The translations under genes were made by a program, and so were the position numbers. Of a DNA stretch of 64,000 bases, positions 18,990-64,000 are shown in pieces; position 1 is the stretch's first letter, and each line of letters opens with the position of its first letter. The notes under the pieces are model-generated. The model was given only the letters and a program-made list of their open reading frames with translations, was not told the DNA's origin and did not search any database. The stretch is taken from the NCBI GenBank assembly GCA_022821875.1, contig JAJECV010000070.1, forward strand, positions 18,676 through 82,675. The letters are read 5' to 3'. This DNA is from Rhodothermales bacterium (GTDB lineage Bacteria > Bacteroidota > Rhodothermia > Rhodothermales > Bin80).

Positions 18990-19055
18990 TCCGGGCACAT
19001 GGCGCAGGGGAAGCGTACATTGATCCTTGTTGTGCCGGGGGCGTGCTCCTGAACA

Positions 19056-19075
19056 GGCAGGCCAGCTGGCCTGCC
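19056..19075 (+). terminator. 20-bp perfect palindrome downstream of paralog 1 (possible terminator hairpin)
   Basis: GGCAGGCCAGCTGGCCTGCC lies 67 nt after the stop at 18989. No U-tract follows, so its function is uncertain. Confidence 0.25.
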
Positions 19076-19143
19076 CCGTACCTGAAATTGTACCACGAAG
19101 AAACTCCCGACGGATTCGCGGTGTTCAGTCTGAATTCCCATGT

Positions 19144-21033
19144 TGATTTTGCTATATGAATTTCAGGGGCGCTTCCCAAACTGCATCCGCAGGATTTTAT
19201 GGCCCAGCCAGGGGACTTTCTGACGCAATTCGGGGTATCCTGCTGCAATCAGGTAATTGTCATTTGCGCGTGCTCGGAATTGAACGACAATTTCATCTTT
19301 GGTAATGGTGACTTTGCCGGGGCGTTTTACGAGATCTCGGAAGATGGTCCGTTCCCCGGCATCTGCATAGGGTTTGCCAACCCGTGTTCCCAGGAGTCGA
19401 TAAAGTACACTGGCCATGACGGTCAGCTGCACATCCACATTGATGCGCATCGGAACGACCGAACTCAGTGCATCCATGTGAAAGAAGTTGATGGCATCGC
19501 TGATGACATTCTCCCTGACCATGCGCCGGGCATAGCGGTCAATGAGTTCCCCGGGATCCCGTTTCATCTGATTGGTGATCAGTACCATTGGCCTGTCATC
19601 CCCTGAATTCCTGATAAGCAGCTGCCGGATTGGATGGGGATAATCCCGTAGATGGATGGTCTCATCCACTACGCCGAGAGTTCGATACCTGCGTCCAGTG
19701 TTGCCCAGCCGGACATTCGTCCAGGCCGATTTGTCCAGAGAATGGATCCGCTGGATCAGGGAAGTATGGCAGCGGCGCAGCGTGATAAACGGAATCCCCA
19801 TCTGATTCAATGCTGCCAGGTTGGCATAGACGGTAAACCGGCTGTCAAAGACAAGTTCTTCGGGAACCGTCCCGGTTCGGGCCTCCCAGTCCCTGACGAA
19901 TGCGAGAACTGCATCGTTCCGGGTTTCCTTTCGGACGGCTGGGTCCGCATAACAAAAGATATTCAAATCGGCATCCCGTGCCAGCACGGTGAGGATTCCC
20001 CGCTGCCGCCGGCTTCGATTGGAGACAAAATGTTTCTCCACCAGGGCATGATCGCCATGACAGGGAATCGTATGAAAATCCAGATCAATTGAGTTTCCCC
20101 TGCCGACCACATTTGCAATGTTTGCGGCCGCATGATCCCACCGGTGCATGAGCGGTCCTGCAAATGCGGGATCCGCCAGGATCGAGTATTCGGTCAGTGC
20201 GGTGCATTTGGGAATGGCATTGAGTCCGGTAAACAGTGCAAGCCCTTCATCCAGGGATTCGGCCATGATCTGGGAGGGGCGACCGATCCCGTATAACTTC
20301 AGTGCCAGAAGCGAAAGCATCGCACATACCGCGGGGACCCTTTTCGCGCCGGGCATTTTGACCTGCTCCAGCATGTTCTTCAGATCCATCTGTGCCAAAT
20401 CAAAGGCAAATAAAAACAGGCCCGCAAAGTCGGTCGAAAAGGTCCGTTCGCTGAGATCCAGTTTCGTGCGATCCGCGGGAATCACCCGGGGGGAGCGCTC
20501 ATTCGCGGAGCGACGGGCAAGGCGTGGAATACGGTGCTGTTTGAAAATCTTCTGGATATAGCCCAGACTGGCAGGAATCCCTTCCTGTTTCAGGATTGCC
20601 TGAATTTCCTGAATGGAGCGGTTCTCTTCGCGTCGGAGGGCAAGAATGCGGGCAGGTCGGGGGTTGGGGGGCCTGTCGATGGGAGATACTTTCGTGGATT
20701 CCGGCCAAAAGAAGTGTGCGGAGCGGTTTTTTCGAAAGCTCGTCAATAGGTTTCGGAAGGATCCGGGAGTATAGCCGCCAATCTCGGCGGCTTCTTCAAT
20801 GGACGCACCTTCATGTTCATAGGCGCGAAGGGCTTCGTAGCGACGCATAGGGATACCCTCGGGCCGGGCAAAGAATTCAGAGCGGCGACTCATCTTAATC
20901 GTGAAATATGAAAAAATAGGCCATATATTAAAATAAAATGCAAGAATCGAATGTCTAGGAAGAGAAAAAAGTTTGATTCAGGGAGAGAAATCACCCAGCA
21001 GGGGGGAGTTATACGGCAAAATTCATAAAAATC
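19144..21033 (-). mobile_element. Candidate IS element (about 1.9 kb) around the transposase gene
   Basis: There are inverted matches: TGATTTTGCTATATGAATTT (19144-19163) versus the reverse complement of AAATTCATAAAAATCA (21018-21033), identical apart from a 4-nt indel. No clear target-site duplication was seen. Confidence 0.3.
19163..20893 (-). CDS. DDE transposase (IS4-superfamily-like; family not assigned)
   Basis: N-terminal HTH-like region, candidate catalytic 'SIDLDFH' and 'LARDADLNIFCYAD', and a Y-x2-R-x3-E pattern in 'DRYARRMVRENV'. It sits in a mobile-element context at 576 aa. Confidence 0.65.
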   Translation of the reverse strand: MSRRSEFFARPEGIPMRRYEALRAYEHEGASIEEAAEIGGYTPGSFRNLLTSFRKNRSAHFFWPESTKVSPIDRPPNPRPARILALRREENRSIQEIQAILKQEGIPASLGYIQKIFKQHRIPRLARRSANERSPRVIPADRTKLDLSERTFSTDFAGLFLFAFDLAQMDLKNMLEQVKMPGAKRVPAVCAMLSLLALKLYGIGRPSQIMAESLDEGLALFTGLNAIPKCTALTEYSILADPAFAGPLMHRWDHAAANIANVVGRGNSIDLDFHTIPCHGDHALVEKHFVSNRSRRQRGILTVLARDADLNIFCYADPAVRKETRNDAVLAFVRDWEARTGTVPEELVFDSRFTVYANLAALNQMGIPFITLRRCHTSLIQRIHSLDKSAWTNVRLGNTGRRYRTLGVVDETIHLRDYPHPIRQLLIRNSGDDRPMVLITNQMKRDPGELIDRYARRMVRENVISDAINFFHMDALSSVVPMRINVDVQLTVMASVLYRLLGTRVGKPYADAGERTIFRDLVKRPGKVTITKDEIVVQFRARANDNYLIAAGYPELRQKVPWLGHKILRMQFGKRP

Positions 21034-50322: not shown

Positions 50323-51711
50323 TCAAAACTTACTGGAGATTTTCAGGGCAACCTTTGTCAAATCGTAGGATATTGTCATGCCTGCCGGATGGCGCTTGCT
50401 CTTGGCGTAGTTTGTCCGCTCTTCCCAAATTGATTTGCCTCTTGAGATGTTGGCATCCACTTCTTGCACAAGAAGTGGATGCAGGGGGAAATTCTCAAGA
50501 TTGGTACGCGTTAAATGGAACCCATCGCCAACTGTACGCCAGTAATCCAAGAATAGATCTGATGACATGATGAGGACGGCTTTGTACAAGTCGACCTCTG
50601 TTTTGAAGCGCAGCCGAAGAACCCCAGATGAATGATGCTCACGAAAGCCCATAAAATTTCTCGCAACACCCGATATGTACAGCGAATGTATACCATCTGC
50701 CGCCAGAATGGTTTTCAGTGGAGGATACAAATGAGCATCCTTGAGTAAGTTCAGGATGGCGGCATTTTCCGGCCGTAGAAATTGCCCGCCAAAATTGTAT
50801 CCGGTTATATCATGATAGCAAGGGGTAGAATTCAGCAGTCTGCTGCGATCCTTTTTCCTCCACCGATGCATTCGTGTGGACAGTGTTCTGGGATTGTCTT
50901 CAGGAAATACGGTGACGATTGAGCACCGCTGGCTATTGGCCTTGTTTGTGTTTTTATGTTTAGGCTTCCCACTCGAAAAGAGGCAGTCAGGGATATTATC
51001 AAAACTGGAAATCGCAACACTCTTCCCGGAATTTCTCATCATGGATCGCAATTCCACATAGTCGCGACTAAAGGCGACTGACAAAGGCAGAATGAAATGA
51101 ACCGAACCATGTTCTCCACTCTCTGTCAGCGCACGCTCCAGGAAATCTGCGAAGCTATTTTTCCATCGGCTCCCCTTGGGATTCGCTACATATGGAGGGT
51201 TTCCAAAGAATAATGGCTTCTTGGATGATCCAGAGGGTGCGTAGTGAAGAAAATCGGTACACACATACCTAATGTCTGAGAAAGAGAGACCCCATTTTTT
51301 TGAAATTTTCTGAATTTCGTCACGGGCAAAGTCTAGTGCTTTGGGGTTGATGTCAATTAATGTGATTTCAGCAGATGAAAGGCAGTCCAATGGTAAGCCA
51401 AGTTCGACAACCTTTTTGAGTAACGCATACACAAGGATTCCTGCACCAGATGCAGGCTCTATGAAGTGGTGTTCCTGCCAGAAAGCCTTGATGTCCTGCT
51501 CTTCAGAAATACCATTGAGCACCATGAATTCGTTCCAGAAGAACGCGGCGGCATCTACGGGTGTATAATACGCACCTACCTTCTTGCGGGCATCTTCGGA
51601 CTGACAGGGCGACGAGTAGGATAGCGTCAACTCCGCCTTTTCGGAATGCCTTAATACCTCTTCAAGACCCGCTACCCATTCTGATCTCCAGTCCCCGTTG
51701 CAGATTTTCAT
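50323..51711 (-). CDS. N6-adenine DNA methyltransferase (gamma-class, Eco57I-like)
   Basis: Motif X 'GAYYTP', I 'IEPASGAGIL', IV 'FFGNPPYV'. The start is uncertain (ATG 51711 or 51777), and both overlap the HNH gene's 3' end. Confidence 0.8.
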   Translation of the reverse strand: MKICNGDWRSEWVAGLEEVLRHSEKAELTLSYSSPCQSEDARKKVGAYYTPVDAAAFFWNEFMVLNGISEEQDIKAFWQEHHFIEPASGAGILVYALLKKVVELGLPLDCLSSAEITLIDINPKALDFARDEIQKISKKWGLSFSDIRYVCTDFLHYAPSGSSKKPLFFGNPPYVANPKGSRWKNSFADFLERALTESGEHGSVHFILPLSVAFSRDYVELRSMMRNSGKSVAISSFDNIPDCLFSSGKPKHKNTNKANSQRCSIVTVFPEDNPRTLSTRMHRWRKKDRSRLLNSTPCYHDITGYNFGGQFLRPENAAILNLLKDAHLYPPLKTILAADGIHSLYISGVARNFMGFREHHSSGVLRLRFKTEVDLYKAVLIMSSDLFLDYWRTVGDGFHLTRTNLENFPLHPLLVQEVDANISRGKSIWEERTNYAKSKRHPAGMTISYDLTKVALKISSKF

Positions 51712-52669
51712 TGGATGGTTCGTATTCCTGGGAAACGGGTTTGGCGAATCTTGTATGGTGCAACGATTCAATCGCATCTAGCCCCTTTGCTTGTTTTTCT
51801 TGTCTGAGATACTCCGCTCGGTCCTGATTGAAGATCAGGAGATTATCTGGTCCTGGTAGCAGCAAAGCAGTATCGTAGAGAGCATGATGCTCAATACACA
51901 ATGCTAGGCCATTGTCTACTGTATTGGGAGAATTATGGACAGAATGGGGGATGATGTGTGCTGCTTCCACAATTCCCAGTTGCCGCTTACAGACACAACA
52001 TGCGTGCCCATAGGCCGCCAATACTTTTTTCTTGAATTGTGGATCACGAGGAAACGCTTTTCGTGTGTAAGAGAAGCGCATCCGTTTCTCACTTGTGGAA
52101 GTGGTCTCTCCCTCAATTGAAAGGAAATTCGCAGAATAAGAGTCACGAACAATTCTTTGAATGTCTTCGTCAGACCGCAGACGATGAAAGTGCTGTATGT
52201 TTTGCAGATAGAAGCCCAGCGAATCTGAAGTCAGGGCGATTTCGGATGTATTCTCTTCCATGTATTTTGCAGAAAATGTGCGGACAGCGGCAGAACACTC
52301 TTCAACACGTTCCTTCTGCGTTTGCCTTGCATATACCGACACCATTCTTCTGGCTTGAAGTGTGAAAATATACATCGGATCCCAAGCCGTAAATACCCTG
52401 CCGCCTTCAAAGAAGCCAATAAACGCAACATTCATTCTTCCCTCCCGGCGACTGCGTTGCTTATCAATATACTTTCTAGGAATTTGAATCCGCACCTCGT
52501 CGTCATTGGATCGCCGGTTCCCCGAATCATGCACCTGTGAGATATGCAACGAATGTAGTATTCCATTAAACTGGACAATCACGGGATTTGACCTGTCTTT
52601 GATCACAAAGTCCTCAAAGTATGGCCTCAATGAATCCTGAACGAAATGATACAATAGATCCCGCTTCAT
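51662..52669 (-). CDS. HNH endonuclease (putative restriction enzyme)
   Basis: 'CCVCKRQLGIVEAAHIIPHSVHNSPNTVDNGLALCIEHHALYD'. ATG 52669 forms an ATGA overlap with the C5-MTase stop. Confidence 0.8.
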   Translation of the reverse strand: MKRDLLYHFVQDSLRPYFEDFVIKDRSNPVIVQFNGILHSLHISQVHDSGNRRSNDDEVRIQIPRKYIDKQRSRREGRMNVAFIGFFEGGRVFTAWDPMYIFTLQARRMVSVYARQTQKERVEECSAAVRTFSAKYMEENTSEIALTSDSLGFYLQNIQHFHRLRSDEDIQRIVRDSYSANFLSIEGETTSTSEKRMRFSYTRKAFPRDPQFKKKVLAAYGHACCVCKRQLGIVEAAHIIPHSVHNSPNTVDNGLALCIEHHALYDTALLLPGPDNLLIFNQDRAEYLRQEKQAKGLDAIESLHHTRFAKPVSQEYEPSNENLQRGLEIRMGSGS

Positions 52670-53700
52670 ATAGCATTCTCCAATAAGTGCTTTATCATCT
52701 TCTCCGCAAGAATGCACGGAACCGCGTTCCCTATTTGCCTTTGGACTGACCGCCTGTTCCCATAGAACTTATATTTTTCAGGAAATGTTTGAATTGCGGC
52801 CACTTCCGGGACCCGAAGTCGTCGGTTTGACCAATGGAACGGACCCACCCAAGGCCCCGGTTGCGCAGCAATTGTAATTGAGGGCAATTCAGGGTGAAGT
52901 TTATAAAGAAAATTCCAAAAACGCCCACCAGAACGAAATTTGCGGCCGTTGTAGTCAGATAATTTTGACAAGGAAATATAGTTTTTGCCCGGAGGCACGC
53001 AGGTTAGTTCATGGAAATAAGTCCCCTGAGTCGCATCTTCCTGAGGCTCAGAGAACACCGGTTGATCAAATCTTGATATGAATGGTGCAACAGCCAAATA
53101 ATCAGGGAAGGAGTCATCGAAATCCTTTTTACTATAGTCAGAATGAGTTGGGCTAGGACAAGGTATTGCCCTTGACGCACCTCGGACTCCAAAGACAAAT
53201 ACTCGCTTTCGCTTCTGTGGTACGCCAAAGTCAGCAGCGTTTGCTCGATATCGTGTGCACTGATAGCCCAGTATTTCAGCATTGGATATAAAGCGAAGAA
53301 ACTCATCTTTATTGGTCGGGTGTAGAATGCTTTCAACATTCTCAAAAAGAAAAGCCTTTGGTCGCATCTCGGACAGAACACGGATAAACTGCCCCAGCAG
53401 ATTGCGGGGATCATCCTGGATCAGCCGATTATCATGGGTCACCCAGTAGCCGTTCTTGGAAAACGGTTGGCACGGCGGGCCGCCTATCAGGACTAAATCG
53501 TCAATATCTGCCCACCGTCTGAAGTCCACATTTTTGATGTCGTCTTCAATGATATCAAAGGAGTGACCGCTGCAATTCAATCGCAATGTTTCAATTGAGT
53601 CGTGGTCATTATCAACACAGGCGATGATTTCAGCACCTGCATTTCGCGCACCAATATCAAGACCTCCTGCTCCCGTAAATATGCTGACACACTTTACCAT
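52666..53700 (-). CDS. DNA (cytosine-5)-methyltransferase
   Basis: Motif I 'SIFTGAGGLDIG', IV 'GGPPCQPFS', VI 'ENVESIL', X 'QIGNAVP'. Confidence 0.9.
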   Translation of the reverse strand: MVKCVSIFTGAGGLDIGARNAGAEIIACVDNDHDSIETLRLNCSGHSFDIIEDDIKNVDFRRWADIDDLVLIGGPPCQPFSKNGYWVTHDNRLIQDDPRNLLGQFIRVLSEMRPKAFLFENVESILHPTNKDEFLRFISNAEILGYQCTRYRANAADFGVPQKRKRVFVFGVRGASRAIPCPSPTHSDYSKKDFDDSFPDYLAVAPFISRFDQPVFSEPQEDATQGTYFHELTCVPPGKNYISLSKLSDYNGRKFRSGGRFWNFLYKLHPELPSITIAAQPGPWVGPFHWSNRRLRVPEVAAIQTFPEKYKFYGNRRSVQRQIGNAVPCILAEKMIKHLLENAI

Positions 53701-54013: not shown

Positions 54014-54874
54014 TCACTCCTCGCCCTGGAAAACTCTCAGTCCACGCAGTGAGGCTTTCTTGTACAGGGGATCCAGTACGTCCGAAAGTGACTCCTCTGC
54101 ACGCCAGAAGGGAAACTTGCCCAGACGTTTCGGCAATGCCGCCGGTGCAGGCGGAGTACGGACGACTCCGTAAAAATCATCAGGCAACGCCCCCTCCTCC
54201 CAGAAATCATCCCCCAGCCTCAGCGGAACCGATGCATGGGCTGTTTCTTCTGCCTCATCCGAATCTTCCTTTTTCACCGCCTTGGCTCCGGTGATTTCGT
54301 AGAGGAACTGTTCGCGGGTGATTCCGCGCAGCTCAAAAAGCAGAAACGGGTCACGGTCAAATTCTTCCGCCAACAAATAAATGACCGCCGCAATGTGCTT
54401 ACATGGATTCGACCAGTCTGGACAATCACACTCCATCTTCAGATCGTTCCGGGGCTCGGGTAAAAGCGGCATCCCGTGCTCTTTCATAATCCGCTCAAAG
54501 TCCTCCGGGATCTCACCCGACAGAAGCCGTGCCACATAGAAAGGCTGCTGCCGCAAAGATTCTGCCAGTTTTTTCCATTCTGTACGCTTGTAGACCTTTA
54601 GTTTAATCTCAAGATCATACGATCCGCTGCGGGAGCCCTGAACTGCAGAATCCACCTTCCCCTTCAAAATGTCAATGTACAGCACCTGCCCTCTGCGGGC
54701 ATAGGACTTCCCGCGCCCCAAACGGGCTCCGATGGAAAAACTCTCAAGCTTCTGAACCCAGCGGCGGCCCCACCAGGTCTGTCCAAACTCACCCCGTTTT
54801 GACTGTGCCTTGATCCCTCCCTCAACCGAGCGCGGCCGGGAAGGCGGAAAATAATAATTGTCATAGTAGGACAT
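54014..54874 (-). CDS. SWIM zinc-finger protein
   Basis: 'CDCPDWSNPCKHIAAVIYLL' (CxCxnCxH). It lies immediately downstream of the SNF2 helicase gene. Confidence 0.8.
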   Translation of the reverse strand: MSYYDNYYFPPSRPRSVEGGIKAQSKRGEFGQTWWGRRWVQKLESFSIGARLGRGKSYARRGQVLYIDILKGKVDSAVQGSRSGSYDLEIKLKVYKRTEWKKLAESLRQQPFYVARLLSGEIPEDFERIMKEHGMPLLPEPRNDLKMECDCPDWSNPCKHIAAVIYLLAEEFDRDPFLLFELRGITREQFLYEITGAKAVKKEDSDEAEETAHASVPLRLGDDFWEEGALPDDFYGVVRTPPAPAALPKRLGKFPFWRAEESLSDVLDPLYKKASLRGLRVFQGEE

Positions 54875-54912
54875 CCTTCAAATCGTCGGATTGATTTTCT
54901 ATATTCTGATCT

Positions 54913-57900
54913 CTACTGAACCGCTCCTTTTTGTAGTCGGAGTATTTTTTTAAGGTCGCGGGTAGAAAGTTCGGTAATCCACTGCTCGCCGGTCCCGACG
55001 ATACTGTCTGCAACTTCCTGCTTTTGTTCAATCATTTCGTTGATCTGTTCCTCAATGGTGCCCGTACACACGAACTTGTACACCTGCACATGCTTTTTCT
55101 GTCCGATGCGGAAGGCGCGGTCTGTCGCCTGGTTTTCCACAGCCGGGTTCCACCACCGGTCATAATGGAAGACATGGTTGGCACGCGTAAGGTTAAGGCC
55201 GGTACCTGCTGCCTTCAGTGATAAGATGAAAAATAGCGGGCCGTCTTCATCCTCCTGAAAACGCTCTACCATACGATCACGGTGTTTCTTAGGTATCCCC
55301 CCATGCAGGAACAGGGCCTCCTGCCCGAAGGTCTCCTGCAAGTGTCTTTGAAGCATGGTTCCCATTTCGGTGAACTGCGTAAAGATGAGTACCCGGTCTC
55401 CAACTTCGTAAACTTCCTCAAGCATCTCAATGAGTCGGGTTAATTTGCCAGAGCGTTCTGGAATTGCGGACCCGTCATGCAGAAACTGCGCCGGATGGTT
55501 GCAGATCTGTTTGAGTTTCATCAGTGTAGCCAGAATGAGCCCTTTGCGCTTAATCCCATCATCCTCCGCACCTTCAAGAGAGTCTGATATTTCTTTAACA
55601 ACGGCCCGATAGAGTGAACCCTGTTCCTTGGTCAGATTGGTGAAAACATTCGTTTCCTGTTTTTCAGGCAGATCATCAATGATGGTCTTGTCGGTCTTGA
55701 GGCGGCGAAGGATGAATGGTCCGGTAATTTTTTTGAGACGCTCAACCGCCTCCATATCACGATCAATCTGAATCGGGACGAAAAAACTACGTTTAAATTT
55801 TGCCTGACTGTAAAGAAAGCCCGGGTTCAGGAATTCCATGATGGACCACAACTCACCGACATTATTCTCAACCGGTGTACCTGTGAGCGCAACCCGAAAA
55901 TCACTCTGAAGTGCCCGGGCCGCCTTGGCCTGTTTGGTGTTGGGATTTTTGATGTTCTGCGCTTCGTCCAGAATCACCGCCGCCCAATTGACCTGCCCCA
56001 ATGCCTCAAAATCACGATGCAGAAGCGGGAAGCTCGTAATCACAATCGCATGCTTTTCTGCTTCTTCCTGAAACGCTTCGGATTCTTTAACACGCCGTGG
56101 ACCATGGTGCACCATGACCGGTAAGTATGGAGTAAAGTGTGCTGCTTCTTTTTGCCAGTTGCCCATCACAGAGGTTGGACATACCACAAGCACCGGACGC
56201 TGATCGTTCGTTTCCCAGTTATGCTGAATGAAGACCAGGGTTTGAGGAGTTTTCCCCAAACCCATATCATCAGCCAGACAGGCTCCAAAGCCCCAGCGCT
56301 GCAAAAATGCCAGCCATGCGTAGCCACGAGACTGATAAGGCCGCAGCGTACCCTCAAACTGAGCCGGAACAGGAATCTCTTCTATCTCTGCACCGTGCTC
56401 CAGGGAATCTAGCAGATCCCCGACCCATCCCGTCGCCTCCACCCCTTCAAAGGGCAATATCTCCGGGGTTTCGGCGAGCCCCAGTGCCATGTGCACGACA
56501 TCACGGACCGTAACCGATTGACTCCGGCTTTTCTTCTTCCAGAAATCAATCGCTTCCTGAATGGCTCTGGCATCAAACTGTACCCATTGCCCCCGAATTT
56601 TTACGAGAGGCATTTTCATCTCGGCCAGGGTTTCCAGTTCCTGAAGTGTGAGTTTTTCATTTCCCAGCGCAATCTTCCAGTCAAACTCGACAACCTTGTC
56701 AAGAGAAAGACTTCCGGCACTCTTCATTGCTGGAGATGAAATAGAAGCACTTACCGACAGTTTATTTCGTGCACCGGCAGTGGAAGACCACCATGCAGGA
56801 AGCTGTACTGTATACCCCGCCTGCTGTAACAGCCAGGCGGTTTCTGTCAAAAACACATAGGCCCCTGCAGTGTCAAGGATCGCACCGCCTGGACGGGGCT
56901 GCTTCAGGCTTTCTTCAAGAACTGGATCCAGACTGGAGACATGTCCAAGTGAGGTGAGGAGATATTCCTGAATATTTGCCTGTCGCTTGGCAAGAATTGA
57001 CTTTGTTTGTTTTCCTGGATCCCAGGCATCTGCCACCTCAATAAACAAACTGGGATCGTCTACTGCGTTCAACAGATAGCGTACGTACCATAGATCTGTA
57101 GCCTCTTGTTCTTCGGGCTCTTCAAGTCGAAAACTGAGACGGAACGGAGCAATGGCTGAAACTGAGATTGAGCGCCGCCAGGCCCTGATTTGCCCGGCCA
57201 AATGCTCCAATTCTTCGGTTCCGCCTGACATGCTCCCATTCCAGATACGCAGGGCTTGGATCCACTGATCATGTACACTCGCAAACGACTTTTTACTGGC
57301 CTTACGTGAGCGGGTACGCGCCGGCCGTTTCTCCATCCAGGACAAGCGTACCAAGTAGTCAACGAACCTATTCACGACCTTTGATACAACCGAGATGGAT
57401 GATTCTCCCGGGGCTTTCTTCGCCTTGTGACTCAATGCCCTGCAAACCTGGGGCATCACCCCGGCGAGTGTAGTAAGCTTGTCAGAGTCATTGCTGAGAA
57501 AAACCGGCTCCCATACTGCCTGAAACTCTCCATCCTGTTCCCCCACGCCCGGCAGAAACTGCTCTCTGGTTACCAGCGCACTGGTAAAGCGTAATACTTT
57601 TTTGAAGAAGCGTATATCCGAACCAAGGATCACACCTGGAGCGAGCATTTCCTTACCATAACAGGTGGCCAGAAAATGAAACGCCTCATCATCAGATAAA
57701 GCAATCGCAGTGATGCGCCAGGGTGCCAGTACCGGATCTGTATCTTCAGGTGGAGTGTCTGCAATCAACGGACTTGAGGGCAGGGGAACGCCATCCCACG
57801 CAGGCAGCCACATATGCAGGGGAACTGCTCTTTTGACCTGAAGACGAAGACCGCCCTCGGAGGCCGCACTCACCAGTGCCTTTGCCGTCGTATTGTAGGG

Positions 57901-58011
57901 GAGACTTGGTGATGAACCCGCTTTGGGTTTTATTTTACGTCCAGGAGGCGTTTCGCCCCACAGGAACAACTGCCCATCACAGGCACCAAGATGAAGAATG
58001 ACCATTTTCAA
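54913..58011 (-). CDS. SNF2-family helicase/ATPase
   Basis: Motif I 'LADDMGLGKT', II 'ILDEAQNIKN', III 'LTGTPVEN', VI 'QATDRAFRIGQ', plus a long N-terminal accessory region. Confidence 0.9.
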   Translation of the reverse strand: MKMVILHLGACDGQLFLWGETPPGRKIKPKAGSSPSLPYNTTAKALVSAASEGGLRLQVKRAVPLHMWLPAWDGVPLPSSPLIADTPPEDTDPVLAPWRITAIALSDDEAFHFLATCYGKEMLAPGVILGSDIRFFKKVLRFTSALVTREQFLPGVGEQDGEFQAVWEPVFLSNDSDKLTTLAGVMPQVCRALSHKAKKAPGESSISVVSKVVNRFVDYLVRLSWMEKRPARTRSRKASKKSFASVHDQWIQALRIWNGSMSGGTEELEHLAGQIRAWRRSISVSAIAPFRLSFRLEEPEEQEATDLWYVRYLLNAVDDPSLFIEVADAWDPGKQTKSILAKRQANIQEYLLTSLGHVSSLDPVLEESLKQPRPGGAILDTAGAYVFLTETAWLLQQAGYTVQLPAWWSSTAGARNKLSVSASISSPAMKSAGSLSLDKVVEFDWKIALGNEKLTLQELETLAEMKMPLVKIRGQWVQFDARAIQEAIDFWKKKSRSQSVTVRDVVHMALGLAETPEILPFEGVEATGWVGDLLDSLEHGAEIEEIPVPAQFEGTLRPYQSRGYAWLAFLQRWGFGACLADDMGLGKTPQTLVFIQHNWETNDQRPVLVVCPTSVMGNWQKEAAHFTPYLPVMVHHGPRRVKESEAFQEEAEKHAIVITSFPLLHRDFEALGQVNWAAVILDEAQNIKNPNTKQAKAARALQSDFRVALTGTPVENNVGELWSIMEFLNPGFLYSQAKFKRSFFVPIQIDRDMEAVERLKKITGPFILRRLKTDKTIIDDLPEKQETNVFTNLTKEQGSLYRAVVKEISDSLEGAEDDGIKRKGLILATLMKLKQICNHPAQFLHDGSAIPERSGKLTRLIEMLEEVYEVGDRVLIFTQFTEMGTMLQRHLQETFGQEALFLHGGIPKKHRDRMVERFQEDEDGPLFFILSLKAAGTGLNLTRANHVFHYDRWWNPAVENQATDRAFRIGQKKHVQVYKFVCTGTIEEQINEMIEQKQEVADSIVGTGEQWITELSTRDLKKILRLQKGAVQ

Positions 58012-59126: not shown

Positions 59127-60224
59127 ATGAATTCTGACCAGAATACTGATTCTAACTCCAGACTACCCGTCAAGGTATTTGATTTCTTCTCTGGCTGTGG
59201 TGGAGCCAGTCAGGGATTTCAAAATGCCGGAATGGAGATCACGTTTGCCCTCGATTGGGATCAAGACGCGAAACAAACCTTCCAGCAGAATTTCCCGGCA
59301 GCAACCTTTATTGCACAGGACATCCGACAAGTCAGTGAAGGCGCAATCCGCGAACTCGTTGATCAGGCAAGACCTAATCCAATCATGTTTTGTGGTTGTG
59401 CTCCATGCCAGCCATTCTCAAATCAAAATACCAACCGCCAGCAGTCGGATGAGGACGAACGAATCCCTCTAATTCTTGAATTTTTACGCTTCATCCAAAA
59501 GTACAGACCTGATATTGTCTTCGTAGAGAATGTGCCAGGGATTCAGAACGTCAGACCAGAATCAGAGCCGCTTAGCAAATTCCTGCAAGGCCTGAAAGAT
59601 GCGGGCTATAGTCTCCCGACATATGCTTCAGTTCCCCTGAAGCGATATGGGATTCCACAAAGCCGACGAAGGTTTCTGCTCTTGGCAAGTCTACATGGCC
59701 ACTTAAATCTGCCTCCGGAAACCCATGGTTCTGGAACGGAAAATCCAGATTTTGATACCGTAAGAGACTGGATTGGTGACCTTCCTAAAATTGCTGCCGG
59801 CGAACTACATCCTCATGTTCCTGATCACCAGTCTGCGGGTTTATCCGCCCGGAATCTAGAGCGTATTCAGTCCACTCCTGAGGGTGGGGGCAATCAAGAT
59901 TGGCCCGATCATCTTCGACTTAATTGTCATCGTTCATTTAGGGGATATGCAGATGTATACGGCCGGATGTCTTGGAATCAACTAGCGCCAACACTTACAA
60001 CACGATGCATTAATTACTCCAATGGCCGTTTTGGTCATCCCGAACAGGACCGTGCGATCAGCGTCCGTGAAGCGGCGTGCATCCAAACTTTCCCTATGGA
60101 GTTTTCATTTTCAGGTAGTATGAACTCAAAGGCGCGCCAGATTGGGAATGCAGTTCCAGTGAGATTTGCTGAAACCGCTGGACTTCATATTGAGAGACAT
60201 TTAACAGAAATGGGGGTACACTAA
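59127..60224 (+). CDS. DNA (cytosine-5)-methyltransferase
   Basis: Motif I 'VFDFFSGCGGASQGF', IV 'CGCAPCQPFS', VI 'ENVPGI', X 'QIGNAVPV'. Confidence 0.9.
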   Translation: MNSDQNTDSNSRLPVKVFDFFSGCGGASQGFQNAGMEITFALDWDQDAKQTFQQNFPAATFIAQDIRQVSEGAIRELVDQARPNPIMFCGCAPCQPFSNQNTNRQQSDEDERIPLILEFLRFIQKYRPDIVFVENVPGIQNVRPESEPLSKFLQGLKDAGYSLPTYASVPLKRYGIPQSRRRFLLLASLHGHLNLPPETHGSGTENPDFDTVRDWIGDLPKIAAGELHPHVPDHQSAGLSARNLERIQSTPEGGGNQDWPDHLRLNCHRSFRGYADVYGRMSWNQLAPTLTTRCINYSNGRFGHPEQDRAISVREAACIQTFPMEFSFSGSMNSKARQIGNAVPVRFAETAGLHIERHLTEMGVH

Positions 60225-60227
60225 ATT

Positions 60228-63206
60228 ATGGATGTGAATTTCAAGGCCGCTGCCCGAACGTTAGACATGCTGGGTAGACAGCAAATTGCAGGGATTCCCA
60301 CTGCAATCTCCGAACTGTTCAAGAACGCACATGATGCGGATGCAGAGAGGGTGGAGGCAGACTATTTTCGCAAGGAGAAGCTTCTCGTGATCCGGGATGA
60401 TGGATTCGGTATGGAGTTAGAGGAATTCAAAGATAGATGGCTCACAATCGCCACAGATACCAGTATCAAGCGGAAGCAAAAAAAAGATCAGGGCTATACC
60501 TCCGTCAAGTCAAAAAGGCCCGTATTAGGAGAAAAAGGGATCGGTCGTCTGGCTATCGCAACCATTGCCCCCCAGGTATTAGTCCTTACACGTGCCAAGC
60601 GTAACGGCAAACTGTCAGATCTAACCGCCGCCTTTTTGAATTGGGAATTCTTTAAGTGTGTGGAACTGAACCTTGAGGATATTCGGATTCCACTCCGAAC
60701 ATTTCCTGGGGGTATTTTACCTGATGCTGGGGATATAGAAGGTATGGTTCGGGACTTTCGAGATAGGAACATCAGTCTACGAGAACGTATTGATTCTGGG
60801 CAGTGGGACGAAATAGAAGCAAATCTCCAGAATTTCAACATAAACCCCCAAGAACTTTGCCGACGCTTTGGAGGACCTTCGCTTCTGAACCAAGGTCACG
60901 GTACTCATTTCTACCTTCTGCCCACAGATGAAAATCTAGACTACGATATAGACGGGAATCCCCGTTCCGATGAAGCAGCACCGCTTCAGAAATCTCTACT
61001 GGCATTCACCACACCTCCATTTGGTACTGAGGAGAACACTGTCATCCAAACCGCATTCCGAGTACACAATACGGATGGAACTTGGAATGATCTTATTGGA
61101 CCCAATGAGTTTTTCACTGACTCTGAATATCAAAATGCCGACCATCGAATCTGGGGACGATTTGATAATTGGGGGCAATTCAAGGGCAATGTGTCGATCT
61201 ATGGCGAAGCAATAAAAGATCATATAATCAACTGGAGTGGGCGTAATCGGGGAGAAAAGACCAAATGCGGCCCTTTTCGCATTAAATTTGCCGCCATTGA
61301 AGGCCTAGCAAGACATTCCACTATACCCTCCACTGAACATACTCGTATGATAGCTAAGACCCGAAAAATCGGAGGCTTATACATCTACCGTGACGGAGTA
61401 CGTATTCAGCCCTATGGGAATACAGACTACGATTGGCTTGACATCGAACTTCGGCGCACGAAGAGTGCATCCTACTACTATTTCTCCTACCGGCAGATGT
61501 TTGGAATTGTAGAAATAGACTCCGTTAACAACAAACACCTCAGCGAGAAGGCCGGCCGAGAAGGGTTTAGAGAAAATCTGGCATATCGTCAGATGCGAGA
61601 TATTCTGAAAAGTTTTCTTGTCCAGATTGCTGCCGATTTCTTCCGTGAGGAAGGATTCCGAGCCGACCTCTTCACCGGTCGGAAGCGAGAACTGGAAGAA
61701 GCTGAACGACATCGTCAAGCCAGAAAGAAGAAGGTTACCGCGAAGCGGAGCAAGTTCAAGAGTGATTTGGATGGTTTCTTTGAGAAAATAGAGCAGCAGA
61801 CTCCACATGAATCAGCCCTGAAACTGATGATAGATGTTGAAGAACGGGTTCGGCAAGCAGCGGAAAATGAGAATCACAAGCTTGCTGCTATCCAAATCCT
61901 AGCAATAGAACGTTTGGCTAGGATCTCACTGAAGGAATTGGAAGACGGCTATCGAATTACTAAGCCAAGGATAGGACTCAGCAAGCGTCTGGCAAGGGAA
62001 TGGAGCAACTATCAAGAAACATTTGAGGAGTTCCGAGTGGAGGTTGGTAATGTTCGAGATACAATTGAAAGTACCATTACTGAGGAGTTAGACAAGATTG
62101 GGGTAAATGTGGAAGTCAGAGAGCGCATGGAATCAGTTCTAAAGGATGCTGCAAGAAAAGCCAGACAAAAAACGAAAGCAGAGCGTCGGGAAATTGAGGC
62201 GAGGGTTGCGCTTATTTCTGACACTGCCCGAAAGTTGACGAAGGAGTGCGTCCAGAATGTTGAAACGACCATTCGCAATGTAATGACGCAGTTTAGCCAG
62301 CGAGACTTTTCCGGCCGTGATCAGCAGCAGTTCATTGCGGAGCGTACTTCTATGGAAACACAGATCCTGGATGCCGAAAAAGAAGCACTGCAAAAACTGG
62401 AATCTCTTCGGATTCAACTCGAAGCGATCAACCTTGAAGATGATGCATCCATTGTTGATGAACTCGTTGCGATTGAAGAAAGCAACATCGCACTGAAGGA
62501 ACAGGCTGCGATTGATCTCCATCTTGCCCAGATTGGTATGGCAATTGAAATTATAGGCCATGAGTTCGGTGCTGCAACCCAGGCGGTAAGATCTGGAGTT
62601 CAGGGCCTGAAGCCTTGGGCTGACTTAAATAGTGACTTAGTCCCATTATATCAAAATATCCGTAACGGATTTGAACACCTAGATGGATACCTCAGCCTCT
62701 TCACTCCACTTCAAAGGAGACTATACCGCAAGGCAGTTAACATTTATGGCTGGGAAATCTTTGAATTCATCATGCACCTCTTCGGTCCACGCTTATCGAG
62801 GCATGATATAACGCTGTCTCAAACGGATTCTTTTGCAAGCATGAAGCTCCTTGGATACCCATCCTCTTTCTTTCCTGTGTTTATTAACCTCGTGGACAAT
62901 GCTATCTACTGGCTTTCAGGTCAGAACGAACGGTTTGAACGCAAGATCCAACTGGATGCATTTGATAATGTACTGCGAGTTTCTGATTCGGGCCCGGGTG
63001 TCCATGATCGGGATAGGCATGACATTTTCAACCTTGGGTTCACGAGGAAACCTGAAGGCCGGGGAATGGGGTTATATATCGCCAAAAAAACTCTGAATGA
63101 GGTCGGTTACGACCTCATTCTTGAAGAAGAAATACCAGATTGGAATACATCATTCTTGATCATGCCAGTGGAAGACGAGGGGGGAAATGCCGGTGCCAAT
63201 GAATGA
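60228..63206 (+). CDS. 992-aa ATPase with two GHKL modules: N-terminal HATPase_c_3-like and C-terminal histidine-kinase-like core
   Basis: N-terminal module: 'ISELFKNAHDADA', 'VIRDDGFGM', 'GEKGIGRLA'. The middle is a long coiled coil. C-terminal module: H-box-like 'IEIIGHEFGAA', N-box 'INLVDNAIYW', G1 'VSDSGPGV', G2 'EGRGMGLYIAKK'. Confidence 0.7.
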   Translation: MDVNFKAAARTLDMLGRQQIAGIPTAISELFKNAHDADAERVEADYFRKEKLLVIRDDGFGMELEEFKDRWLTIATDTSIKRKQKKDQGYTSVKSKRPVLGEKGIGRLAIATIAPQVLVLTRAKRNGKLSDLTAAFLNWEFFKCVELNLEDIRIPLRTFPGGILPDAGDIEGMVRDFRDRNISLRERIDSGQWDEIEANLQNFNINPQELCRRFGGPSLLNQGHGTHFYLLPTDENLDYDIDGNPRSDEAAPLQKSLLAFTTPPFGTEENTVIQTAFRVHNTDGTWNDLIGPNEFFTDSEYQNADHRIWGRFDNWGQFKGNVSIYGEAIKDHIINWSGRNRGEKTKCGPFRIKFAAIEGLARHSTIPSTEHTRMIAKTRKIGGLYIYRDGVRIQPYGNTDYDWLDIELRRTKSASYYYFSYRQMFGIVEIDSVNNKHLSEKAGREGFRENLAYRQMRDILKSFLVQIAADFFREEGFRADLFTGRKRELEEAERHRQARKKKVTAKRSKFKSDLDGFFEKIEQQTPHESALKLMIDVEERVRQAAENENHKLAAIQILAIERLARISLKELEDGYRITKPRIGLSKRLAREWSNYQETFEEFRVEVGNVRDTIESTITEELDKIGVNVEVRERMESVLKDAARKARQKTKAERREIEARVALISDTARKLTKECVQNVETTIRNVMTQFSQRDFSGRDQQQFIAERTSMETQILDAEKEALQKLESLRIQLEAINLEDDASIVDELVAIEESNIALKEQAAIDLHLAQIGMAIEIIGHEFGAATQAVRSGVQGLKPWADLNSDLVPLYQNIRNGFEHLDGYLSLFTPLQRRLYRKAVNIYGWEIFEFIMHLFGPRLSRHDITLSQTDSFASMKLLGYPSSFFPVFINLVDNAIYWLSGQNERFERKIQLDAFDNVLRVSDSGPGVHDRDRHDIFNLGFTRKPEGRGMGLYIAKKTLNEVGYDLILEEEIPDWNTSFLIMPVEDEGGNAGANE

Positions 63207-64000
63207 TTTTCAAAAGCATTGTCTGGAGATCACCAAGCGTTTCCTTTTGACAGCAATTGTCGTTGACGACGAACTCAATCTCTCCGAGCCGTCAGCAGCA
63301 CGCGATGATCTCACAACACCGAATTCCAACGCCGAAACCTCAGAGGATGGATCGGATAACCAGCCACCACTACGCCCCCTCAGAGTTGATGAAATAACGT
63401 CGTCATTTTCTCGCAGTGGTATGGTATGTGGAGTCGTGTCACCCGAAACGGGGGGCAATGACTCAACTTTTGCTAAGACTTTGAACCGTGCAGACATAAT
63501 TATCCTGGACTGGCGGTTGAGTCGAAAAAATGGATACACTGCTTTGCCATTATTGCAGAAGATTCTTTCGGAGGGATCTCAATATCAACTTCGTCTGATC
63601 GCCATCTATACTGGGGAGCCTGATCCCAAAAGAATCCTTGATGAGATACGGCGTAGTGTCCCTAAGGTCAATGCAAGTGGTCAAGACTCTAATGTGATTG
63701 ATGTTGGTGCATGCCGTATTGTAGTGTATCTCAAAGATCGTACAAAAACCACGACCCAGAATATGCACCTTACTCTGGGTGAAGAAAATTTACCTGACCG
63801 TCTCATCCATGATTTTGCTGACAAAGTTGGGGGGCTTCTACCCAGTATTGTAATGACCGCATTAACTGCGGTCAGAAAGAACGTTTATCGGGTTCTGGAG
63901 CGTTTTGGAGCAGAACTGGACCCCGCATTCTTAACACACCAGACATGTCTGCCCCAGCCGCAAGAAGCACAACAGCATATTGTGGAACAGATTGCAAGTG
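63187..64000 (+). CDS. Receiver (REC)-like domain protein, 3' end outside window
   Basis: This is not in the ORF track because no stop is reached. Frame 1 from ATG 63187 (or 63199) reads MPVPMNDFQKHCLEITKRFLLTAIVVDDE...ADIIILDWRL...RLIAIYTGEPD, a REC-like acidic pocket/Asp/Thr pattern. It overlaps the upstream stop. Confidence 0.5.
   Translation, partial: MPVPMNDFQKHCLEITKRFLLTAIVVDDELNLSEPSAARDDLTTPNSNAETSEDGSDNQPPLRPLRVDEITSSFSRSGMVCGVVSPETGGNDSTFAKTLNRADIIILDWRLSRKNGYTALPLLQKILSEGSQYQLRLIAIYTGEPDPKRILDEIRRSVPKVNASGQDSNVIDVGACRIVVYLKDRTKTTTQNMHLTLGEENLPDRLIHDFADKVGGLLPSIVMTALTAVRKNVYRVLERFGAELDPAFLTHQTCLPQPQEAQQHIVEQIAS

What the first reader, a model, noticed from the sequence alone, without database searches (positions are those of the whole stretch)
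59127..64000. C5-methyltransferase followed by a double-GHKL/histidine-kinase-like ATPase and a receiver-like protein: a two-component-style module in a defence setting
The 992-aa protein combines an N-terminal MORC/Hsp90-type GHKL module, a ~450-aa coiled coil, and a C-terminal unit with an H-box-like 'GHEF' followed by N, G1 and G2 boxes of sensor kinases. There is no TM or sensor domain. The next gene overlaps its stop and begins with a REC-like fold ('IVVDDE', 'IIILDWRL', 'IAIYTGEPD'), and its output domain lies beyond the window. Phosphorelay logic attached to a DNA MTase, rather than to a transcription factor operon, is unusual. I cannot assign it to a named system.
Basis: partly seen in the sequence, partly recalled or inferred. 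Interest (0 to 1): 0.6.

Follow-up and report, generated by a model that had tools for sequence, protein, structure and literature searches.

The report
Methylase-linked kinase and receiver-effector cassette

Summary
Three translationally coupled genes encode an intact-looking C5-MTase (365 aa), a 992-aa soluble kinase and a receiver protein. The kinase has a paraMORC-type GHKL head, a conserved globular middle, a ~290-aa coiled coil (not ~450), a HEF_HK DHp domain with invariant His778, and a canonical CA domain. The receiver protein is 522 aa in full and runs 755 bp past the window end.

It is not unassigned. Pfam HEF_HK (PF19191) and Response_reg_2 (PF19192) were built for exactly this pairing (Bellieny-Rabelo 2021, PMC8011034). 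A five-gene relative, Ambrosia, blocks phages (bioRxiv 10.1101/2025.09.30.679545). This scan has already noted such cassettes on other DNA: 106 notes in at least 93 genomes.

What I add:
- In 60 of 77 loci from many phyla the same three genes are intact, in the same order. Homology with relatives starts and stops at their borders, so no separate nuclease belongs to the unit.
- The output part is not a DNA-binding domain. It is a helical domain plus a C-terminal beta domain found only in this family (1,502 clusters).
- A confident model of that domain (pLDDT 89) matches MazF toxins at fold level only.

Best reading: a methylation-linked phosphorelay that activates a non-transcriptional effector. 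This is untested. Verdict: new member of a known kind, moderate interest.

The parts
59127..60224 (+). C5 cytosine DNA methyltransferase, 365 aa, first gene of the cassette
   Evidence: PF00145 4e-57; PADLOC MTase_II 4e-89; TIGR00675. Motifs I (FSGCGG), IV (PCQ), VI (ENV), VIII (QSRRR) and X (GNAVP) are all present. Conserved directly upstream of the kinase in about 70 of 77 loci.
60228..63206 (+). HK-like protein, 992 aa, soluble; starts 3 nt after the MTase stop
   Evidence: 'Group 1' architecture of PMC8011034 (HATPase_c_3 + HEF_HK + HATPase_c).
60300..60653 (+). N-terminal paraMORC/MutL/Hsp90-type GHKL ATPase head (residues 25-142)
   Evidence: HATPase_c_3 2e-15. NF050001 BbrUII/HgiDII REase family, N-terminal 118 positions only, 8e-24. 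PADLOC REase_II heads. Bergerat motifs E29/N33, D57xGxG61 and G101xxGxG106 are invariant. Weak PDB profile hits to GRP94/HtpG/MutL.
60654..61661 (+). Conserved globular middle region (residues 143-478), probably the S5/transducer-like part of the MORC-type module
   Evidence: Many invariant residues (D305, H306, D313, K377, G383, Y385, E407, K441, R444). No Pfam or PDB sequence hit. The S5 assignment is inferred from Iyer 2008 (PMC2292703) and was not tested.
61662..62522 (+). Long helical/coiled-coil linker (residues ~479-765, ~290 aa)
   Evidence: Pro+Gly 0-8%, E/K/R/Q/A/L up to 68%, lowest conservation in the protein.
62529..62729 (+). DHp domain (HEF_HK, residues 768-834) with phospho-acceptor His778 (codon 62559-62561)
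   Evidence: PF19191 2e-26. H778 is 65/65. It aligns with the H-box His of ThkA 3a0r (profile E 2e-11 over DHp+CA).
62868..63134 (+). Catalytic ATP-binding (CA) domain of the kinase (residues 881-969)
   Evidence: PF02518 3e-14. The N box (N887, D890, N891), G1 (G922) and G2 (G944xG946xG948) are invariant.
63187..64000 (+). RR-like protein, 522 aa in full; it continues beyond the window to window-equivalent 64755 (L001 4863-6431). Its start overlaps the kinase stop by 20 nt
   Evidence: Full-length conservation at ~50% identity over 99% coverage in hundreds of proteins.
63241..63744 (+). Receiver domain (Response_reg_2, residues 19-186) with phospho-acceptor Asp108 (codon 63508-63510)
   Evidence: PF19192 5e-32. 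D27, D28, D108 and K183 are 68/68; T142 is 67/68. Foldseek gives flavodoxin/REC-like hits.
63748..64000 (+). Start of the output region. The helical domain (residues 188-370) and the MazF-like beta domain (residues ~372-510, plus the conserved tail SEWLRRS) lie mostly or wholly beyond the window (to 64755)
   Evidence: AF2 on 68 sequences: pLDDT 89.3, pTM 0.83. Foldseek PDB top hits are MazF toxins at prob ~1, TMt 0.57-0.64, E >= 2.4e-3. The domain is family-specific.

Best explanation
The region is a three-gene, horizontally mobile cassette of the HEF_HK/Response_reg_2 'two-component-like, R-M-associated' family.

Shown: an intact-looking C5 DNA methylase; a soluble kinase in which a MORC/MutL-type GHKL ATPase module replaces the usual sensor and is joined by a ~290-aa coiled coil to a canonical DHp+CA kinase core; and a receiver protein with all catalytic residues whose output is a helical domain plus a family-specific beta domain with a MazF/PemK-like fold, not a DNA-binding domain.

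Inferred mechanism:
1. The methylase marks the host's own DNA.
2. The MORC-like head, a DNA-clamping ATPase type, monitors DNA or an infection cue.
3. Its ATP-driven dimerisation is passed through the coiled coil and switches on autophosphorylation of His778.
4. The phosphoryl group passes to Asp108 of the receiver.
5. Phospho-receiver dimerisation or release of inhibition activates the C-terminal effector. This acts directly, most likely on nucleic acid, to stop the invader or the infected cell.

So the phosphorelay occupies the slot that a restriction endonuclease holds in an ordinary R-M operon.
For: Domain calls.
Operon coupling (3-nt gap, 20-nt overlap).
Invariant catalytic residues in both ATPase modules, the H-box and the REC quintet.
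H778 aligns to the phospho-His of solved kinases.
Same gene order and spacing in ~70 of 77 loci, with 60 fully intact, across Rhodothermales, Gemmatimonadota, Acidobacteriota, Nitrospirota, Pseudomonadota, Spirochaetia, Chloroflexota, Bacteroidota and others, with identity of the three genes falling in step.
Homology with relatives begins at the MTase and ends at the RR stop, and the neighbouring genes differ. So the unit is three genes with no separate nuclease.
Patchy, multi-allelic and decaying distribution within the genus (7 intact and 3 fragmentary of 23).
Defence-island setting: a second R-M, SNF2/SWIM, a Dsr1-like gene, CRISPR, and Zorya-like genes per earlier notes.
No HTH or other Pfam/NCBIfam/PADLOC domain in the output region.
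Confident model of the output region with consistent MazF-family fold matches.
The output domain is restricted to this architecture.
Precedent that a methylase-linked HK/REC system defends against phages and needs the receiver Asp: Ambrosia, bioRxiv 10.1101/2025.09.30.679545, read.
Against: Nothing about signal, phosphotransfer or effector activity has been tested for this family.

The MazF resemblance is fold-level only. Foldseek E-values are 2e-3 or worse and identity is ~10%. There is no PemK Pfam hit. hhalign gives P = 0.03. The position of the MazF catalytic Arg is not an Arg.

No nuclease motif was identified anywhere in the cassette.

In the closest relative (L002) the cassette methylase carries a 719-bp deletion, yet the kinase and receiver genes remain open with all catalytic residues. 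This argues against obligatory self-killing when methylation is lost.

In Ambrosia, methylation by AbrA did not protect phages, and the authors favour transcriptional control.

The decay pattern that spares the MTase is what gene lengths alone predict.
Confidence: 0.55

Rival explanations
1. Transcriptional control model (Bellieny-Rabelo 2021; the Ambrosia working model). The kinase senses stress or infection, and the phosphorylated receiver protein turns on expression of R-M-type genes. It is a regulator, not an effector.
For: This is the published hypothesis for the family and for Ambrosia, where reporter expression rose on infection and AbrC carries a wHTH. A second R-M operon (C5-MTase + HNH_2) lies 6 kb upstream in this window.
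Against: No HTH or wHTH was found in the 522-aa protein by Pfam, NCBIfam or Foldseek on a pLDDT-89 model. The cassette travels as exactly three genes with no nuclease gene to regulate. The upstream R-M is on the other strand and is not conserved with the cassette. The C-terminal beta domain is strongly conserved and family-specific.
Confidence: 0.15
2. Direct restriction model. The kinase/receiver pair is an NTP-dependent restriction enzyme. The MORC-like clamp finds unmethylated sites, and a cryptic DNase cuts the foreign DNA. The DNase would be the receiver's C-terminal domain or the kinase's conserved 143-478 region. There is no abortive infection.
For: The head is most similar to the GHKL heads of BbrUII/HgiDII-family type II enzymes (NF050001 8e-24; PADLOC REase_II). 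paraMORCs were predicted to act in R-M-like DNA cleavage (PMC2292703). The MTase is tightly linked and co-evolves. C402-D403, W487 and K492 are invariant or nearly so in the output domain.
Against: The similarity to BbrUII covers only the ATPase head. No PD-(D/E)xK, HNH, GIY-YIG or PLD signature or fold was found. The predicted beta-barrel topology is not a restriction-endonuclease fold.
Confidence: 0.2
3. Selfish addiction module. The cassette mainly ensures its own maintenance by post-segregational killing when methylation is diluted, with defence only a by-product.
For: Sharp three-gene borders, lateral spread across phyla, and multiple alleles and decayed copies within one genus. This is typical of R-M-like selfish elements (general knowledge, discussed).
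Against: L002 keeps open kinase and receiver genes after an internal deletion of its methylase. The cassette is rare on plasmids (2 of 72,556 records).
Confidence: 0.07
4. Ordinary cytoplasmic signalling system unrelated to genetic conflict, for example sensing nucleotide levels, that merely sits next to a methylase.
For: Bellieny-Rabelo et al. speculated about NTP sensing by the head.
Against: The methylase linkage is near-universal and in fixed order across phyla. The distribution is accessory, patchy and decaying. The setting is a defence island.
Confidence: 0.03

Closest known systems
HEF_HK / Response_reg_2 'two-component-system-like' elements linked to R-M systems and paraMORC ATPases (Bellieny-Rabelo, Pretorius and Moleleki 2021, Genome Biol Evol, PMC8011034)
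   Same: Identical 'group 1' kinase architecture (HATPase_c_3 + HEF_HK + HATPase_c). An adjacent Response_reg_2 gene. An upstream C5-methylase. Soluble proteins. Conserved His and Asp. This locus is a member.
   Different: The paper left the receiver protein's C-terminal two thirds undescribed and proposed transcriptional or regulatory control of neighbouring R-M genes. Here the unit is shown to be exactly three genes, with a non-DNA-binding output that is MazF-like in fold.
Ambrosia anti-phage system, AbrR-AbrA-AbrB-AbrC-AbrD, Pseudomonas aeruginosa (van den Berg et al. 2025, bioRxiv 10.1101/2025.09.30.679545)
   Same: A DNA methylase, a histidine-kinase/Hsp90-like ATPase and a receiver protein in one operon. 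Experimentally required for phage defence, including the receiver Asp.
   Different: Ambrosia has five genes: an XRE regulator, an N6-adenine methylase, a REC-wHTH regulator and a separate type IV HNH nuclease. This cassette has a C5 methylase, no XRE, no HTH and no nuclease gene.
Prokaryotic MORC/paraMORC GHKL ATPases of R-M systems (Iyer, Abhiman and Aravind 2008, PMC2292703), and BbrUII/HgiDII-family type II enzymes with a GHKL head
   Same: An N-terminal GHKL head with intact ATP-binding motifs followed by a conserved globular region. Linkage to cytosine methylases. Sporadic lateral distribution.
   Different: Described paraMORCs carry or neighbour nuclease domains (RecB-like, TIR, HKD). 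Here the C-terminal partner is a histidine-kinase core, and the signal leaves the protein by phosphotransfer.
Detocs defensive two-component system (Rousset et al. 2023, bioRxiv 10.1101/2023.01.24.525353; details from my own knowledge of the paper)
   Same: Logic: a cytoplasmic kinase-like sensor phosphorylates a receiver fused to an enzymatic, non-transcriptional effector, giving phage defence.
   Different: Detocs has a TPR-type sensor, an extra 'buffer' receiver, a PNP-type ATP nucleosidase effector and no methylase. No PADLOC model other than REase_II heads matched the proteins here.
MazF/PemK/Kid endoribonuclease toxins (type II toxin-antitoxin systems)
   Same: Fold-level match of the last ~130 residues to E. 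coli, D. radiodurans, S. aureus and M. tuberculosis MazF structures: probability ~1, TM 0.57-0.64 normalised to the toxin. The hhalign alignment is collinear, including the C-terminal helix.
   Different: No sequence-family membership (no PemK_toxin hit; hhalign P = 0.03). The catalytic Arg position is not conserved. There is an extra N-terminal hairpin with invariant C-x4-C-D. It is fused to a receiver instead of being paired with an antitoxin.

Membership tests
HEF_HK/Response_reg_2 TCS-like R-M-associated elements (PMC8011034) | Kinase-like protein with HATPase_c_3 + HEF_HK + HATPase_c | tested here: met
   Pfam 2e-15, 2e-26 and 3e-14, all above the gathering cut-offs.
HEF_HK/Response_reg_2 TCS-like R-M-associated elements (PMC8011034) | Response_reg_2 protein encoded within three genes of the kinase | tested here: met
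   PF19192 5e-32. The gene overlaps the kinase stop by 20 nt.
HEF_HK/Response_reg_2 TCS-like R-M-associated elements (PMC8011034) | Conserved core His followed by an acidic residue; conserved REC Asp, acidic pair, Thr and Lys | tested here: met
   H778-E779 65/65. D27, D28, D108 and K183 68/68; T142 67/68.
HEF_HK/Response_reg_2 TCS-like R-M-associated elements (PMC8011034) | Soluble proteins; C5-methylase upstream | tested here: met
   Maximum KD19 1.29 and 1.25. PF00145 gene ends 3 nt before the kinase start.
Ambrosia (AbrR-AbrA-AbrB-AbrC-AbrD) | HipB-like XRE regulator gene in the cluster | tested here: not met
   The two small upstream ORFs have no Pfam hit and are on the other strand. The conserved unit starts at the MTase.
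Ambrosia (AbrR-AbrA-AbrB-AbrC-AbrD) | N6-adenine methylase | tested here: not met
   The methylase is C5-cytosine type, with PCQ, ENV and QxRxR motifs.
Ambrosia (AbrR-AbrA-AbrB-AbrC-AbrD) | Receiver protein with a winged-helix DNA-binding domain | tested here: not met
   No HTH family by Pfam or NCBIfam. No wHTH among Foldseek hits of a pLDDT-89 model.
Ambrosia (AbrR-AbrA-AbrB-AbrC-AbrD) | Type IV HNH endonuclease as last gene | tested here: not met
   Nothing conserved follows the receiver gene. The window's HNH_2 gene belongs to a separate, opposite-strand R-M 6 kb away.
Ambrosia (AbrR-AbrA-AbrB-AbrC-AbrD) | Sequence homology of the kinase and receiver to AbrB/AbrC | not testable with these tools
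The paper's text does not mention HEF_HK (one search lists no such hit).
Classical two-component system (OmpR/NarL-type) | Phosphorylatable His in DHp, a CA domain, and a REC with the catalytic quintet | tested here: met
Classical two-component system (OmpR/NarL-type) | DNA-binding output domain and a membrane or PAS/GAF-type sensor | tested here: not met
   No such domains. The sensor slot is held by a GHKL ATPase.
MazF/PemK toxin family | Match to the PemK_toxin profile | tested here: not met
   No hit even at E <= 10. hhalign against 14 PemK sequences gives P = 0.03, probability 0.8%.
MazF/PemK toxin family | MazF/CcdB-type beta-barrel fold with a C-terminal helix | tested here: inconclusive
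   About 20 MazF chains are the top hits at probability 0.92-1.0 and TMt 0.51-0.64, but the best E is 2.4e-3 and rmsd is 4-6 A.
MazF/PemK toxin family | Catalytic Arg (beta1-beta2 loop) and Thr/Ser | tested here: not met
   In the hhalign alignment the RP motif aligns with K/Q-Q427 and the T-S motif with P446-S447. There is no conserved Arg at that position.
Type II restriction-modification system | Methylase plus a recognisable cognate endonuclease | tested here: not met
   The methylase is present. No nuclease family or fold was found in the other two proteins.
paraMORC (Iyer 2008) | GHKL domain followed by an S5 domain, in an R-M context | tested here: inconclusive
   The GHKL domain and the R-M context are met.

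The most novel reading that the evidence does not exclude
An R-M-like immune system without a restriction endonuclease. A MORC-type DNA clamp reads the methylation state set by the linked C5 methylase and reports non-self by His-to-Asp phosphotransfer. Receiver phosphorylation then dimerises a MazF-fold domain into an active nuclease/toxin. This would be the first phosphorylation-gated MazF-like effector and the first direct coupling of epigenetic self-marking to a two-component relay with an enzymatic output.
Probability: 0.22. Interest if true: 0.75.

Novelty: new member of a known kind. Interest (0 to 1): 0.4.

Why it matters
The cassette family is large: 1,502 clusters at 50% identity for the output domain alone. 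It spreads across a dozen phyla, yet no three-gene member has been tested. If the kinase really reads DNA methylation or foreign DNA and passes the signal by phosphotransfer to an enzymatic effector, that would be a new wiring for innate immunity in bacteria. It would also give MORC-type ATPases, which silence foreign DNA in plants and animals, a concrete biochemical read-out. The work here narrows the experiment. Three genes are sufficient to clone. The residues to mutate are named: H778, D108, C402/D403 and K492. The output is predicted to be non-transcriptional.

Tried and rejected
- HEPN reading of the helical output domain (suggested by an earlier scan note on another genome): no conserved Rx4-6H motif in alignments A1/A2 and no HEPN structure among the Foldseek hits. 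Rejected for this subfamily.
- PD-(D/E)xK reading of D403...E490-x-K492: E490 is only 56/68 conserved and the predicted topology is a beta-barrel, not an alpha-beta-beta-beta-alpha-beta core. Rejected.
- Sequence searches of the output region against Pfam (E <= 10), NCBIfam, PADLOC, PHROGs and PDB profiles: nothing.
- Foldseek against the viral BFVD library: no credible hit.
- Downstream DUF2806/Abi_alpha, 218-aa and Dsr1-like genes as part of the system: rejected. They are a 5.2-kb insertion absent from the closest relatives and from all other loci.
- 'The MTase is spared when the cassette decays' as evidence for toxicity of the kinase/receiver arm: uninformative, because gene lengths alone predict ~80% of hits outside the MTase.
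- Phage carriage suggested by phrog_8137 (E 1e-103): traced to a 'remnant integrative element' in the chromosomal flank of an E. coli prophage record, not to a phage gene. The receiver protein has no match in 50,697 phage records.
- Sigma-70 promoter and terminator scan: no signal above shuffled expectation, and not suited to this phylum.
Full report
WHAT IS THERE. The window lies on contig C90 (97 kb) of a 3.68-Mb, 51.5% GC assembly, 95.75% complete. The nearest relatives are uncultured Rhodothermales. At the stated coordinates there are three co-directional ORFs: 59127-60224 (365 aa), 60228-63206 (992 aa) and one starting at 63187 that runs off the window. The gap between the first two is 3 nt, and the third overlaps the second by 20 nt. 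I fetched the rest of the contig (L001). The third ORF is 522 aa and ends at window-equivalent 64755.

DOMAINS.
- Protein 1 is a C5 cytosine methylase (PF00145 4e-57; PADLOC MTase_II 4e-89). Motifs I, IV (PCQ), VI (ENV), VIII and X are all present.
- Protein 2 has HATPase_c_3 at residues 25-142, HEF_HK at 768-834 and HATPase_c at 881-969.
- Its head resembles the GHKL heads of BbrUII/HgiDII-type restriction enzymes, but only over the first ~118 profile positions (NF050001 8e-24, far below the 550-bit cut-off).
- A profile of 41 orthologues matches solved histidine kinases across DHp and CA (ThkA 3a0r, E 2e-11, residues 752-978). His778 lies on the phospho-accepting His of the H-box. The head hits GRP94/HtpG/MutL only weakly, and residues 143-750 hit nothing.
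- Protein 3 has Response_reg_2 at residues 19-186 (5e-32) and no other Pfam, NCBIfam, PADLOC or PHROG family.

- Across 65 kinase orthologues (down to ~39% identity), H778, E779, N887, N891, E29, N33 and D57 are 65/65. The G2 box and the head's GxxGxG are also invariant.
- Across 68 receiver orthologues, D27, D28, D108 and K183 are 68/68 and T142 is 67/68.
- Neither protein has a hydrophobic segment.
- The coiled coil is over-stated in the finding. The Pro/Gly-poor, charge-rich, poorly conserved stretch runs from about 480 to 765 (~290 aa). Residues 143-478 are a well-conserved globular region. By analogy with paraMORCs (GHKL+S5; PMC2292703) this is probably the transducer part of the ATPase module. 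I could not test that.
The phosphorylatable His is invariant, and the downstream protein is not an OmpR/NarL regulator with its own promoter.

IT IS ALREADY DESCRIBED.
[quoted passage not shown] 2021 (PMC8011034). They reported 91.6% linkage of the two genes in 644 regions, frequent upstream C5 methylases, no TM segments, and descent from paraMORCs. They noted that Response_reg_2 proteins lack any other known domain, and they proposed a regulatory role towards R-M systems.
- A five-gene relative, Ambrosia, protects P. aeruginosa against phages. It comprises an XRE regulator, an N6 methylase, an HK/Hsp90-like ATPase, a REC-wHTH protein and an HNH nuclease. It requires the receiver Asp. Its authors favour transcriptional control, and methylation did not protect phages (bioRxiv 10.1101/2025.09.30.679545).
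- DefensePredictor lists a HATPase+REC system only among predicted, unvalidated systems.
- The scan's own notes hold 106 entries on such cassettes in at least 93 genomes. I took the Ambrosia reference from them and checked it myself.

THE UNIT IS EXACTLY THREE GENES.
- A scan of one genome per species returned 77 loci.
- In about 70 of them MTase, kinase and receiver lie in the same order and with near-identical spacing. 60 have all three intact.
- The phyla include Rhodothermota, Gemmatimonadota, Acidobacteriota, Verrucomicrobiota, Nitrospirota, Latescibacterota, Pseudomonadota, Spirochaetota, Chloroflexota, Bacteroidota, Desulfobacterota and Campylobacterota.
- Identities fall together: 95/95/77% in the closest relative and ~50/40/26% in the farthest. 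The receiver is always the fastest-evolving gene.
- DNA comparison shows that L002 and L003 share the flanks and the cassette but lack window-equivalent 64756-69955. In more distant Rhodothermales, similarity begins at the MTase and ends at the receiver stop.
- None of the window's other neighbours recurs. These are the DUF2806/Abi_alpha-like gene, the 218-aa ORF, the Dsr1-like 956-aa gene, the HNH_2 R-M and SNF2/SWIM.
- Within the genus, 7 of 23 sampled genomes carry intact copies at 50-82% identity, so several alleles are present. Three carry fragments with stops. None of the 17 other genera sampled in the order has it.
- The cassette is rare on plasmids (2 of 72,556 records, one cut by IS5) and was not found in phage records.
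- A strong PHROG hit of the kinase (phrog_8137, 1e-103) traces to a 'remnant integrative element' in the chromosomal flank of an E. coli prophage record.

THE OUTPUT REGION.
- The full-length model was mediocre (pLDDT 69). A model of residues 188-522 built on 68 sequences from the loci is confident (pLDDT 89.3, pTM 0.83).
- It shows a helical domain (about 188-370) and a beta-rich domain (about 380-510) ending in a helix. A conserved, poorly modelled tail (P-L-N-x-S-E-W-L-R-R-S) follows.
- Foldseek against the PDB gave, for both models, almost only MazF-family toxins at the top. They come from E. coli, D. radiodurans, S. aureus and M. tuberculosis (mt1, mt3, mt9), with probability 0.92-1.0, TM normalised to the toxin 0.51-0.64 and rmsd 4-6 A. 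No hit has an E-value below 1e-3, and identity is ~10%.
- As an independent check I aligned the domain profile to 14 PemK sequences taken from related genomes. The alignment is collinear over 89 columns, including the G-x-L...helix element, with P = 0.03. Two control domains gave 0.38 and 0.45. The probability is below 1%, and the MazF catalytic Arg position is not an Arg.
- The residues that are invariant lie partly in an extra N-terminal hairpin: C397-x4-C402-D403-x2-R406. W487 and K492 are the others.
- A profile search of 1.84 billion representatives found 1,502 proteins with this domain (1,306 at E <= 1e-10). In all 150 listed it sits at the C-terminus, mostly of 500-600-aa proteins. The shorter ones look like truncated metagenome genes.
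- So the domain is specific to this receiver family. I conclude that a MazF/CcdB-like fold is likely, perhaps 60%. Membership of the MazF family is not shown, and RNase chemistry is not established.
- No HTH, HEPN motif or restriction-endonuclease fold was found.

HOW IT MOST LIKELY WORKS. The shown facts are two apparently active ATPase modules in one soluble protein, an intact phosphorelay pair, a tightly linked and co-evolving methylase, no separate nuclease, an enzymatic-looking non-DNA-binding output, and mobile, patchy, decaying behaviour inside a defence island. From these I infer the following:
- The methylase marks self DNA.
- The MORC-like head, through ATP-dependent dimerisation on DNA, detects unmodified DNA or an infection cue.
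- The coiled coil couples this to autophosphorylation of His778.
- Asp108 receives the phosphate.
- The phospho-receiver activates its C-terminal domain. MazF toxins act as dimers and receivers commonly dimerise on phosphorylation (general knowledge), so induced dimerisation is an attractive route.

I put about 0.55 on this non-transcriptional phosphorelay-effector model as a whole. Whether the target is RNA (abortive) or DNA (restriction) is open.

EVIDENCE THAT CUTS THE OTHER WAY.
- In L002, the closest relative with the same flanks, the cassette methylase has lost 719 bp (residues ~50-282). The kinase and receiver are still open, with every catalytic residue. So loss of the cognate methylase is not immediately lethal, or another methylase covers for it.
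- Among decayed copies, 9-10 keep the MTase and have lost the kinase or receiver, against one of the reverse kind. Gene lengths alone predict ~80%, so this says little.
- The receiver is hit more often than its length predicts (7 of ~10 against 35%). This is a weak hint that disabling it is favoured. The numbers are small and the loci are related.
- Ambrosia's data favour a transcriptional mechanism for that system.

VERDICT. It is a two-component-style module wedded to a methylase in a defence island, but it belongs to a family described in 2021. That family has its own Pfam models and a validated five-gene cousin, and this scan has noted it many times. The locus is a new member of a known, mechanistically unexplored kind. 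The added value here is the three-gene boundary, the exclusion of a DNA-binding output, and a fold-level lead for the effector.

Noticed in passing
L001 6432-11631 (contig beyond the window; window-equivalent 64756-69955): A 5.2-kb insertion absent from the closest relatives. It holds a DUF2806/Abi_alpha-like (TIGR03899) 285-aa gene, then a 218-aa ORF whose stop overlaps a 956-aa protein. That protein matches PADLOC Dsr1 positions 309-1218 of 1227 (4e-36) but lacks the SIR2 head. It may be a split DSR-like system with a different small effector.
   Followed up: partly
L001 ~18167-20000 (contig end; also L003 18264-19983): A CRISPR array with the 37-nt repeat GTCGCAATCCCCTAATGAGCGGGGCATCCTGTGTTAG and ~38-nt spacers, about 12 kb downstream of the cassette.
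   Followed up: partly
L002 1745-1748 (equivalent to window 59260-59978): The closest relative has a 719-bp out-of-frame deletion inside the cassette's methylase. The kinase (93% identical) and the receiver (81%) remain open with all catalytic residues. Its genome holds other C5 methylases, of which the best is only 40% identical.
   Followed up: yes
L025, L028, L057; L096 (P. syringae plasmid pPsy0479a); L097 (E. coli CP-1639 record flank): Decayed or variant copies. The kinase is split by a 1.5-kb insert in L025. The receiver is split by 1.3-1.9-kb inserts in L028 and L057. An IS5-truncated remnant sits on a plasmid. A head-less 614-aa kinase plus a 582-aa partner lies in a 'remnant integrative element' next to an integrase fragment in E. 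coli.
   Followed up: partly
L013 9923-11596: An orphan, intact receiver-effector gene without a kinase or methylase. It sits between DISARM-like genes (helicase, DUF1998, PLD) and a Vsr plus an HNH_2 gene in a Longimicrobiales genome.
   Followed up: no
window 51662-53700 (- strand): A second, separate R-M pair: a C5 methylase (344 aa) overlapping an MTaX1+HNH_2 endonuclease (351 aa). It is not conserved with the cassette.
   Followed up: partly
window 54014-58011 (- strand): A SWIM zinc-finger protein plus a 1,032-aa SNF2/DUF3670 helicase. The helicase matches PADLOC ZorD and DpdE models strongly (1e-139, 2e-132). It is shared with relative L003 as flank, so it is not part of the cassette.
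   Followed up: no
cassette genes across L002-L078: The receiver-effector gene always evolves faster than the methylase and kinase: 95/95/77% in L003 and ~60/50/38% at mid distance.
   Followed up: no
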